Virus record (IMG/VR): IMGVR_UViG_3300028283_000231
Source: a virus
Taxonomy: Duplodnaviria; Caudoviricetes
Strand: one strand, 5' to 3'
Length of the DNA stretch: 64,000 nucleotides
A model generated the notes under the pieces. That model saw only the letters and a list, made by a program, of their open reading frames with translations. It ran no database searches and was not told the origin of the DNA. Both the position numbers and the translations under genes were made by a program. Below, piece by piece: positions 63,496-63,575 of the stretch; the stretch's first letter is position 1; each line of letters opens with the position of its first letter.

Positions 63496-63500
63496 CGAAA

Positions 63501-63572
63501 GCGGGAGTTCATGGTTCGAGTCCATGTGAGGGGTCGGCCGACCTTTATAGTGAAATGGTTATCATGCCCGCC
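63501..63572 (+). ncRNA. Circularly permuted, anticodon-less tRNA-Asp-like element
   Basis: 3' half (GCGGG, AGTT, T-arm CATGG-TTCGAGT-CCATG, acceptor ..AGGGGTC) precedes the 5' half (GACCTTT, D-arm GTGA-AATGGTTA-TCAT, CCCGC); linker GGCC. Confidence 0.7.
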
Positions 63573-63575
63573 ATT

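What the first reader, a model, noticed from the sequence alone, without database searches (positions are those of the whole stretch)
63496..63575. Circularly permuted tRNA-Asp-like gene opened exactly at the anticodon loop
Seen: a tRNA 3' half (anticodon-stem strand GCGGG, variable loop, perfect T-arm, acceptor strand) is followed after a 4-nt GGCC linker by a matching 5' half (acceptor GACCTTT, D-arm, CCCGC). The halves pair into a cloverleaf with the acceptor end sealed by the GGTC-GGCC-GACC hairpin and the anticodon end open; no anticodon is encoded. The CCCGC/GCGGG stem and the GGTCG end resemble tRNA-Asp. Established: permuted tRNA genes are known from some algae and archaea, and two-piece tmRNAs are permuted. 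I do not know of this form in phage tRNA arrays. Inference: either a permuted precursor matured using the phage ligase, or a stable non-decoding tRNA mimic (decoy for tRNA-targeting toxins or ribosome/synthetase modulator).
Basis: partly seen in the sequence, partly recalled or inferred. Interest (0 to 1): 0.8.

Follow-up and report, generated by a model that had tools for sequence, protein, structure and literature searches.

The report
Permuted tRNA mimic in phage array
Between two tRNA genes of a giant lake phage lies an 80-base gene for a tRNA-shaped RNA written in rearranged order, with its amino-acid end sealed and no anticodon. Related phages carry similar ones, so it is probably a working tRNA look-alike, like the tRNA-like head of bacterial Y RNAs, not a decoding tRNA or an assembly error.

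Summary
Window 63496-63575 encodes a complete tRNA body in permuted order: anticodon-stem 3' strand, variable loop, T-arm, sealed acceptor-like hairpin, U8-A9, D-arm, anticodon-stem 5' strand. It fills the slot between tRNA-Lys(UUU) and a Ser(CGA)-like tRNA exactly.

It is not an assembly artefact. Contigs from four sequencing runs carry it with 0-1 differences.

It recurs in this huge-phage clade:
- The closest relative (LR756501.1, 735 kb) lacks it at this site but has a different permuted element in another tRNA array.
- A more distant relative has a homologue in the same slot, with about 60 nt inserted in the sealed stem.
- A fourth genome has a third type.

Across three of the elements, 98% of structure cells pair and 14 of 22 pairs changed on both sides.

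tRNA-Asp identity is not supported. The architecture matches the tRNA-like module of YrlA Y RNAs, but the Ro60-binding handle, a neighbouring Ro60 gene and the Rfam score are all missing.

My best reading is a stand-alone, non-decoding tRNA mimic released by ordinary tRNA processing. Its function is unknown. Maturation by the phage's T4 Rnl1-type ligase into a decoding tRNA is not excluded but is disfavoured, because the joined loops are inconsistent.

This scan has noted similar handle-less mimics before in other phage genomes.

The parts
63423..63495 (+). Upstream neighbour tRNA-Lys(UUU). Its 3' maturation would create the element's 5' end.
   Evidence: Rfam tRNA 70.7 bits; ARAGORN
63496..63500 (+). 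5' single-stranded tail CGAAA, which resembles the ordinary A-rich spacers of this array
   Evidence: Sequence. Homologues have CTAAA and CCAAAA at this place.
63501..63505 (+). Outer stem, first strand GCGGG (tRNA positions 39-43)
   Evidence: Pairs 5/5 with 63567-63571. This helix is 100% paired across three elements, with 3 of its 5 pairs changed on both sides.
63506..63509 (+). 4-nt variable loop AGTT. U48 can form the Levitt pair with A15.
   Evidence: ARAGORN drawing of the rejoined form
63510..63526 (+). T-arm CATGG-TTCGAGT-CCATG
   Evidence: The only part matched in Rfam
63527..63547 (+). Sealed acceptor-like hairpin. Canonical register: TGAGGGG-T / loop CGGCC / G-ACCTTTA. Slipped register: AGGGGTC / GGCC / GACCTTT.
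   Evidence: The equivalent hairpin is 8 bp with a 3-nt loop in E2, 7 bp with an 18-nt linker in E3, and 6 bp with an insert of about 60 nt in E1'.
63548..63549 (+). U8-A9 connector (TA)
   Evidence: The same UA stands in the Rfam YrlA consensus.
63550..63566 (+). D-arm GTGA-AATGGTTA-TCAT followed by G26. It carries A14, A15, G18-G19 and A21.
63567..63571 (+). Outer stem, second strand CCCGC (tRNA positions 27-31)
63572..63575 (+). 3' tail CATT, ending in the U(-1) of the next tRNA. RNase P cleavage there would create the element's 3' end.
   Evidence: Sequence. Homologues have GTT or CGTT, CTAT and CCAT at this place.
63576..63664 (+). Downstream neighbour, a long-arm Ser(CGA)-like tRNA
   Evidence: ARAGORN calls the orthologues tRNA-Ser(cga) in L001 and L067. 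In the window it scores only 19 bits to Rfam tRNA.
56530..57336 (+). Context only: a T4 Rnl1-type RNA ligase gene (268 aa) next to an ATP-dependent DNA ligase gene. A link to the element has not been shown.
   Evidence: PF09511, E 1.9e-13. The relative that lacks the element at this site also has this ligase.

Best explanation
The element is a gene for a small, stand-alone, non-decoding tRNA mimic that occupies an ordinary tRNA slot of the phage's Ser/Lys/His/Phe/Trp tRNA operon.

Shown:
- The DNA encodes all four tRNA helices and the elbow-forming D-loop and T-loop nucleotides, in the order 3' half, linker, 5' half.
- The amino-acid acceptor end is closed into a hairpin and there is no anticodon loop.
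- Three further elements of the same design exist in related huge phages. They keep every helix through compensatory changes.

Inferred:
- It is co-transcribed with the tRNAs. Its 3' end comes from RNase P cutting at the 5' end of the next tRNA. Its 5' end comes from 3' maturation of tRNA-Lys.
- It folds into the tRNA L-shape.
- It may additionally be nicked by RNase P in the sealed stem and receive CCA, as happens to Mycobacterium smegmatis YrlA, which also has a 7-bp stem.
- It acts by occupying a protein that recognises the tRNA body or elbow. Candidates are a host tRNA-cleaving defence nuclease or a tRNA processing or repair enzyme.

Among the homologues the tip of the sealed stem varies from 3 to about 60 nt, while the elbow and the short open stem stay constant. 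I therefore think the working surface is the elbow plus the open end. The molecular target is unknown.
For: - Anatomy and significance.
- Independent contigs from four runs.
- Homologue E1' sits in the same slot of L067 (TrpRS 83% identical). It scores 31.6 bits with the single-sequence model R1 and fills the gap between tRNA-Phe and tRNA-Ser(cga) exactly.
- E2 in LR756501.1 (L028:6188-6266, minus strand) scores R1 38 bits, E 8e-9. It fills an 80-nt slot between two tRNAs, and its minimum-free-energy fold is the permuted cloverleaf.
- E3 is at about L084:3878-3962, and in L085.
- On E1, E2 and E1', 98.4% of cells pair and 14 of 22 pairs changed on both sides. None of 500 shuffles reached these values, and slid controls pair at 42-55%.
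- No ordinary tRNA counterpart exists, so this is not a recent rearrangement of a resident tRNA.
- The layout is the same as the Rfam YrlA consensus: T-arm, closed stem, UA, D-arm.
- There is experimental precedent that such modules are modified like tRNA and cut by RNase P when the stem has 7 bp (PMC4201824).
- The same array of the relative also holds a YrlA-like RNA with a 9-bp terminal stem.
Against: - There is no expression data. No run holding the sequence is recorded as RNA.
- Presence is patchy. The closest relative I found (TrpRS 89% identical) and L082/L083 lack it at this junction.
- All copies of E1 itself are nearly identical, so selection on E1 alone cannot be measured.
- The alignment used for pair counts was fitted to the model's structure. 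Compensatory differences could also be inherited from different parent tRNAs rather than from evolution as a mimic.
- E1's minimum-free-energy fold is an alternative rod (-24.4 kcal/mol). The slipped cloverleaf is at -22.2 kcal/mol.
- No partner protein or target was identified.
Confidence: 0.55

Rival explanations
1. It is a true circularly permuted tRNA gene. Flanking tRNA processing leaves a 5'-phosphate at C63496 and a 3'-OH at U63575. The phage Rnl1-type ligase joins them into an anticodon loop. RNase P and 3' trimming with CCA addition then open the sealed stem, giving a decoding tRNA, possibly tRNA-Arg.
For: - An Rnl1-type ligase gene (PF09511) lies 6 kb upstream. In relatives it lies next to the mini-TrpRS or the tRNA arrays.
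- By established enzymology (my knowledge), RNase P and tRNase Z leave the 3'-OH and 5'-phosphate that Rnl1 seals in anticodon loops.
- Joined ends read CAUU|CGAAA in E1 and (C)GUU|CUAAA in E1'. Their central 7 nt would have U33, A37 and anticodons UCG and UCU, both Arg.
- ARAGORN calls the joined E1 form tRNA-Arg(tcg).
- Linkers of variable length also occur in algal permuted tRNA genes (my knowledge).
Against: - Loop length is not conserved. It is 9 nt in E1, 8 nt plus a C.A mismatch in E1', and 10 or 7 nt in E2 depending on where the upstream tRNA ends. E3 has no upstream tRNA to define its 5' end.
- Position 1-72 is mismatched in E1 (A.G) and in E1' (U.C) in the canonical register.
- The relative already has ordinary tRNA-Arg(tcg) and tRNA-Arg(tct).
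- The same ligase is present in the relative that lacks E1 at this site.
- The ligase is 268 aa against 374 aa for T4 Rnl1 (my knowledge). It may therefore lack the C-terminal tRNA-specificity domain. This was not tested.
Confidence: 0.08
2. It is a non-functional relic of rearrangements in a fast-changing tRNA array, for example the remains of two tandem paralogous tRNA genes that lost their outer halves.
For: - Presence among close relatives is patchy.
- The arrays differ greatly in gene content between the window and LR756501.1.
- Tandem paralogues are common in these arrays.
- The linker lengths (3, 5, 18 and about 60 nt) resemble inter-tRNA spacers.
Against: - This needs two precise deletions at the same tRNA position. 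Homologous recombination between tandem copies gives chimeric or duplicated normal tRNAs, not a stand-alone 3'-5' unit (inference).
- The same design occurs at three different slots in four genomes, each with all helices and elbow nucleotides intact.
- E1 and E1' in the same slot differ by at least 9 pairs changed on both sides, counted by eye, while staying paired.
- No relative shows the supposed intermediate.
Confidence: 0.2
3. It is a Y RNA (a YrlA family member) that partners the phage's Ro60-like protein. Alternatively it is a cis-acting processing element that merely offers RNase P an extra entry site in the polycistronic transcript.
For: - The layout is the same as the YrlA tRNA-like module.
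- The relative encodes a DUF2828 protein and a YrlA-like RNA with a 9-bp terminal stem in its other array.
- E1's 5' flank, caCGAAAG, matches 7 of 8 positions of the YrlA motif GNCGAAN0-1G.
Against: - There is no terminal handle, only a 5-bp stem bounded by tRNAs.
- The motif is absent from E1', E2 and E3.
- There is no Rfam YrlA hit even at E 10.
- The relative has no TROVE gene.
- No DUF2828 homologue lies in the window or near E1' or E3. In the relative that gene is about 22 kb from E2 and about 135 kb from this array.
- An extra processing site is unnecessary, because both neighbours are tRNAs that already direct cleavage.
Confidence: 0.12

Closest known systems
YrlA, the tRNA-like Y RNA of bacteria and mycobacteriophages (Rfam RF02553; Chen et al. 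2014, PMC4201824)
   Same: The order of parts is the same: variable region, T-arm, acceptor-like stem closed by a loop, UA, D-arm, with the two RNA ends pairing where the anticodon stem would be. The tRNA tertiary-contact nucleotides are kept, including a 15:48 Levitt pair. M. smegmatis YrlA, with a 7-bp stem like E1, is cut by RNase P and receives CCA.
   Different: There is no long terminal stem and no conserved GNCGAAN0-1G Ro60-binding motif. No Ro60/TROVE gene lies within 4 kb. The D and T stems, nearly invariant in YrlA, differ here. There is no hit to RF02553. The element sits as a tRNA-sized unit in a tRNA slot, bounded directly by tRNAs.
Circularly permuted tRNA genes of Cyanidioschyzon merolae, some green algae and Thermofilum (Soma et al. 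2007; Chan et al. 2011; from my own knowledge, not checked here)
   Same: The 3' half is encoded upstream of the 5' half, joined by a short intervening sequence at the acceptor ends. The break lies in the anticodon-loop region. The intervening sequence varies in length.
   Different: Those genes encode every tRNA position and carry a bulge-helix-bulge motif in paired leader and trailer for the archaeal/eukaryal splicing endonuclease. Here there is no leader-trailer helix, no consistent 7-nt loop, and a bacterial-phage setting without that enzyme.
T4 tRNA repair by Pnkp and Rnl1 after PrrC cleavage, and the bacterial rsr-yrlBA-rtcBA RNA repair operon (PMC7790460)
   Same: A tRNA-shaped RNA open in the anticodon region is encoded near an RNA ligase of the type that seals anticodon loops. 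In Salmonella a tRNA mimic (YrlA) is co-encoded with an RNA ligase and responds to broken tRNAs.
   Different: No functional link was shown here. The ligase is Rnl1-type, not RtcB. It is 6 kb away, and it is also present in a relative that lacks E1 at this site.
Two-piece (permuted) tmRNA genes (Rfam RF04321)
   Same: The order is permuted: T-arm and acceptor 3' strand come before the acceptor 5' strand.
   Different: There is no tag reading frame and there are no pseudoknots. The score is 12.7 bits against a gathering score of 47, and ARAGORN makes no tmRNA call.

Membership tests
YrlA / Y RNA-like (RF02553) | tRNA-like module in the order V region, T-arm, loop-closed acceptor-like stem, UA, D-arm | tested here: met
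   compared with the Rfam consensus shown and the description in PMC4201824
YrlA / Y RNA-like (RF02553) | Terminal stem formed by the 5' and 3' ends that carries the GNCGAAN0-1G motif thought to bind Ro60 | tested here: not met
   There is only a 5-bp stem bounded by tRNAs. E1's flank matches 7 of 8 motif positions, but E1', E2 and E3 have no such motif.
YrlA / Y RNA-like (RF02553) | Encoded within about 4 kb of a Ro60/TROVE gene on the same strand | tested here: not met
   There is no PF05731 match in the 735-kb relative. Its DUF2828 gene is far from both arrays. No homologue lies in the window, L009, L067 or L084. The window's own full genome was not available.
YrlA / Y RNA-like (RF02553) | Reaches the Rfam gathering score (69 bits) | tested here: not met
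   No YrlA match at E up to 10 on 63490-63582
Circularly permuted tRNA genes (algal/archaeal type) | 3' half upstream of 5' half, joined at the acceptor ends by an intervening sequence | tested here: met
Circularly permuted tRNA genes (algal/archaeal type) | Every tRNA position is encoded, so that joining the ends restores a 7-nt anticodon loop | tested here: not met
   Joined tails give 9 nt in E1, 8 nt plus a mismatch in E1', and 10 or 7 nt in E2
Circularly permuted tRNA genes (algal/archaeal type) | Bulge-helix-bulge motif from paired leader and trailer | tested here: not met
   The tails are 4-6 nt, do not pair consistently and abut neighbouring tRNAs
Circularly permuted tRNA genes (algal/archaeal type) | A mature, linear, aminoacylatable tRNA is produced | not testable with these tools
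   No RNA run holds the sequence
Ordinary tRNA gene or tRNA-Asp | Detected as a contiguous cloverleaf with an anticodon | tested here: not met
   ARAGORN and Rfam tRNA make no call at 63496-63575. The Asp label arises only from an inserted GTC loop. There is no similarity to the relative's tRNA-Asp genes.
Permuted (two-piece) tmRNA | Reaches the model score and has a tag reading frame | tested here: not met
   RF04321 scores 12.7 bits against 47. ARAGORN finds no tmRNA.

The most novel reading that the evidence does not exclude
The element is a genuinely permuted tRNA gene of a bacterial virus. Its anticodon loop is created after transcription, when the phage's Rnl1-type ligase joins the ends left by processing of the two neighbouring tRNAs. 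RNase P and CCA addition then open the sealed acceptor stem. This would be a ligase-dependent tRNA maturation route unknown in bacteria or phages. It would give the tRNA-repair ligase a biosynthetic role.
Probability: 0.07. Interest if true: 0.9.

Novelty: new variant of a known kind. Interest (0 to 1): 0.55.

Why it matters
tRNA arrays of large phages are usually read as codon-supply or counter-defence kits made of decoding tRNAs. This element, with its three relatives in the same clade, shows that some slots hold tRNA-shaped RNAs that cannot decode.

The only characterised RNAs with this wiring, the YrlA Y RNAs, work through a Ro60-binding handle that is missing here. The tRNA-like head may therefore have a function of its own. 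The role of that head is still an open question even for YrlA.

If the target is a host tRNA-cleaving defence enzyme or a tRNA repair or processing enzyme, this would be a new class of phage RNA decoy.

There is also a practical point. Standard tRNA finders and Rfam miss these genes entirely, so phage tRNA-like repertoires are under-counted.

Tried and rejected
- **Assembly collapse:** rejected on independent contigs from four runs.
- **tRNA-Asp identity:** rejected.
- **Protein-coding reading of ORF 63460-63690:** rejected. It lies wholly inside tRNA genes, and no plus-strand ORF spans the homologue in L067.
- **Exact-pattern searches that found nothing:** the junction, the tRNA-Lys 3' end and the downstream tRNA start, searched in IMG/VR, and the tRNA-Lys 3' end in JGI metagenomes.
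- **Neighbour protein P0001:** no relatives in IMG/VR.
- **Degenerate T-arm/D-arm pattern in IMG/VR:** 18 hits, all ordinary adjacent tRNAs.
- **Second metagenome pattern:** 11 loci, none matched by model R2.
- **MAFFT alignment of E1 and E2:** it misaligned on a shared AGGGGTCGG string, so I used covariance-model alignments instead.
- **Model R2:** it mostly picks up trivial pairs made of the 3' half of one tRNA and the 5' half of the next, at 18-35 bits. It scores E3 only 28.5 bits, so it does not separate weak true elements from that background.
- **More distant TrpRS relatives (73-74% identity):** their gene order differs and they have no element.
- **Anticodon-loop remnants in the tails:** I considered that the tails (..AAA and C-N-W-U) might be remnants of an anticodon loop. 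Ordinary spacers of these arrays are also CAAAT-like, so the tails may simply be spacer.
- **Function:** I could not identify a target or partner.

Full report
**Where the window comes from.** The tRNA region matches at 92% identity only two 735,411-bp records of an uncultured phage, LR756501.1 and LR756503.1. The length fits the 735-kb genome of the huge-phage survey PMC7162821. Linking the record to that paper is my inference. The sequence occurs in lake-water and freshwater-sediment metagenomes. An ENA contig of the same genome (L009; window coordinate = L009 coordinate + 52117) shows the rest of the array. It runs Trp, Arg-with-insert, His x2, an odd RNA, Phe, Lys, the element, then Ser-like, Ser, Ser, Phe, Ser, Lys, a 243-aa mini-TrpRS, and more Lys and Trp.

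**The observation.** Window 63496-63575 reads as follows:
- tail CGAAA
- GCGGG
- AGTT
- T-arm CATGG-TTCGAGT-CCATG
- a hairpin built on GGGGTC-GGCC-GACC
- TA
- D-arm GTGA-AATGGTTA-TCAT
- G
- CCCGC
- tail CATT

The stretch lies between the last base of tRNA-Lys (63495) and the first base of the next tRNA (63576). When the halves are rejoined in normal order around any 7-nt loop, ARAGORN draws a 73-nt cloverleaf. It has U8, A14, G18-G19, A21, G26, T54-T55-C56, A58 and an A15-U48 Levitt pair. In native order ARAGORN and Rfam detect only the T-arm.

A strict scanner for this permuted layout gave one hit in the window, the element itself. It gave one hit in total across 20 shuffles of a 735-kb genome on both strands. 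Chance is therefore not a reasonable explanation.

One detail needs correcting. In the register that keeps tRNA geometry, the acceptor helix is 6 bp plus an A.G mismatch at 1-72 and a G(-1).U73 pair. It is more stable in isolation, at -22.2 against -17.6 kcal/mol. The overall minimum-free-energy fold is an alternative rod at -24.4 kcal/mol.

**Not an artefact.** Logan contigs from four runs were laid on 63250-63750:

| Run | Coverage | Differences |
|---|---|---|
| X1 (likely source) | whole stretch, one contig | 0 |
| X2 (another sample and study) | 63282-63750, three overlapping contigs | 0 |
| X3 | reaches 63516 | 0 |
| X5 (2021 sediment study) | 63423-63599 | 1 |

**Relatives at this site.**
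- The closest relative (mini-TrpRS 89% identical) goes straight from tRNA-Lys through CAAAT to the Ser-like tRNA, so the element is absent there.
- L082 and L083 (TrpRS 82%) also lack it.
- L067, a 104-kb JGI contig (TrpRS 83%), has a homologue, E1', in the same slot directly upstream of the orthologous Ser(cga) tRNA.
- E1' keeps a similar outer stem and tails but has a changed T stem (GGGGG/CCCCC) and D stem.
- The sealed stem of E1' (CAATCA/TGATTG) holds an insert of about 60 nt that contains a second T-arm-like hairpin.
- E1' scored 31.6 bits, E 3e-8, with a model built from E1 alone.

None of the relatives shows two ordinary tandem tRNA genes.

**More elements of the same design.**
- E2 was found in LR756501.1 at L028:6188-6266 (minus strand) by the relaxed scanner and model R1 (38 bits, E 8e-9). 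It is an 80-nt slot between an odd Ala-like tRNA and tRNA-Ala(ggc), in the Thr/Pro/Ala/Val/Arg/Gly array.
- E2's sealed stem is 8 bp with a 3-nt loop. Its minimum-free-energy fold is the permuted cloverleaf itself.
- E3 lies at about L084:3878-3962, and in L085. It has an 18-nt linker and an Ala-like acceptor stem with G3.U70 and A73.
- On the model-based alignment of E1, E2 and E1', 98.4% of cells pair and 14 of 22 pairs changed on both sides. None of 500 shuffles reached the observed values, and slid controls pair at 42-55%.
- Two caveats apply. The alignment is fitted to the structure, and there are only three sequences.
- Neither E1 nor E2 resembles any of 75 ordinary tRNAs of these genomes.

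**What it is like.** The Rfam YrlA consensus is T-arm, closed 6-bp stem with a 3-nt loop, UA, D-arm. Chen et al. describe exactly this permuted tRNA-like module. It has tRNA modifications. In M. smegmatis the module has a 7-bp stem, is cleaved by RNase P and receives CCA (PMC4201824).

Membership of the YrlA family fails, however:
- There is no terminal handle.
- The GNCGAAN0-1G motif is matched at 7 of 8 positions in E1 only.
- There is no RF02553 hit.
- The relative has no TROVE gene.
- Its DUF2828 gene is far from both arrays, and there is no DUF2828 homologue in the window.

The relative's other array does hold a YrlA-like RNA with a 9-bp terminal stem and a Dictyostelium-class-I-like stem RNA. 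This clade therefore carries a spectrum of such RNAs, and E1 is the short-stem, tRNA-sized end of it.

**The ligase idea.**
- A T4 Rnl1-type ligase gene lies 6 kb upstream. In other relatives it lies next to the mini-TrpRS.
- Flanking tRNA processing should leave a 3'-OH and a 5'-phosphate, which are the ends this enzyme type seals (my knowledge).
- The joined tails of E1 and E1' would centre on U33-UCG-A37 and U33-UCU-A37, both Arg.
- Against this, the loops would be 9 nt in E1, 8 nt plus a mismatch in E1', and 10 or 7 nt in E2. E3 has no upstream tRNA.
- Position 1-72 is mismatched in E1 and E1'.
- Ordinary tRNA-Arg genes exist in the relative.
- The ligase is also present where E1 is absent.
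- The tails also look like the ordinary CAAAT-type spacers of these arrays.

I keep this reading at about 8%.

**Verdict.** The most likely reading is a stand-alone, non-decoding tRNA mimic occupying a tRNA slot and released by normal tRNA processing, with an unknown target. It is a handle-less variant of the YrlA-type module.

I found no paper describing such elements in phage tRNA arrays. Earlier notes of this scan report similar handle-less mimics in other phage genomes. I treat those notes as leads. I tested the YrlA comparison myself.

Noticed in passing
window 63264-63340: An unannotated structured RNA between tRNA-His and tRNA-Phe, with a 9-bp terminal stem GTAATGAAG/CTTCATTAC. ARAGORN and Rfam make no call. 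It is conserved in LR756501.1 (L001, about 1962-2038), with a compensatory CCAG..CTGG to CCTG..CAGG change in an internal hairpin.
   Followed up: partly
window 62980-63095: tRNA-Arg(TCT) with an insert of about 43-54 nt in the anticodon arm (Rfam tRNA 51.3 bits, with 54 inserted bases). The relative has the same insert with a few substitutions.
   Followed up: partly
window 63576-63664: A long-arm Ser(CGA)-like tRNA that scores only 19 bits to Rfam tRNA and is missed by ARAGORN in the window. Its orthologues in L001 and L067 are called tRNA-Ser(cga).
   Followed up: partly
window 55401-57336: Adjacent genes for an ATP-dependent DNA ligase (PF01068 and PF14743) and a short (268 aa) T4 Rnl1-type RNA ligase (PF09511). 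In relatives L074 and L075 a 394-aa Rnl1-type gene lies directly upstream of the mini-TrpRS.
   Followed up: partly
L028:8470-8561 (minus strand; LR756501.1): A YrlA-like RNA inside the Arg/Thr/Val/Ala array. It has a 9-bp terminal stem ATATGGCAA/TTGCCATAT, a T-arm, a long GAAA-capped hairpin and a D-like hairpin AGAG-TAAAGGT-CTCT. It gets no Rfam YrlA hit.
   Followed up: partly
L028:5521-5576 and L028:4908-4975 (minus strand): Matches to Rfam Dicty_Class_I_RNA (37.1 and 25.7 bits; gathering score 41.5) between tRNA genes of the relative's Gly/Ala array.
   Followed up: no
L028:6268-6339 (minus strand) and L084:3968-4041: An odd tRNA with an Ala-type acceptor stem (G3.U70, A73) but a non-canonical anticodon loop TGGATGC. 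It lies next to the permuted elements E2 and E3. Rfam tRNA scores it 33.6 bits. ARAGORN misses it in the relative and calls it Ser(gga) in L084.
   Followed up: no
L088:5666-5733: A tRNA-like gene after tRNA-Pro with acceptor, D and T arms but almost no anticodon arm.
   Followed up: no
L067:3472-3545: The insert of about 60 nt in the sealed stem of E1' holds its own T-arm-like hairpin, GAGAG-TTCGATT-CTCTC. This is possibly a nested second tRNA-like head.
   Followed up: no
LR756501.1 341431-342156 (L047, L048): A 509-aa open frame matching DUF2828 (PF11443; 76 and 44.7 bits). There is no TROVE match anywhere in that genome.
   Followed up: partly
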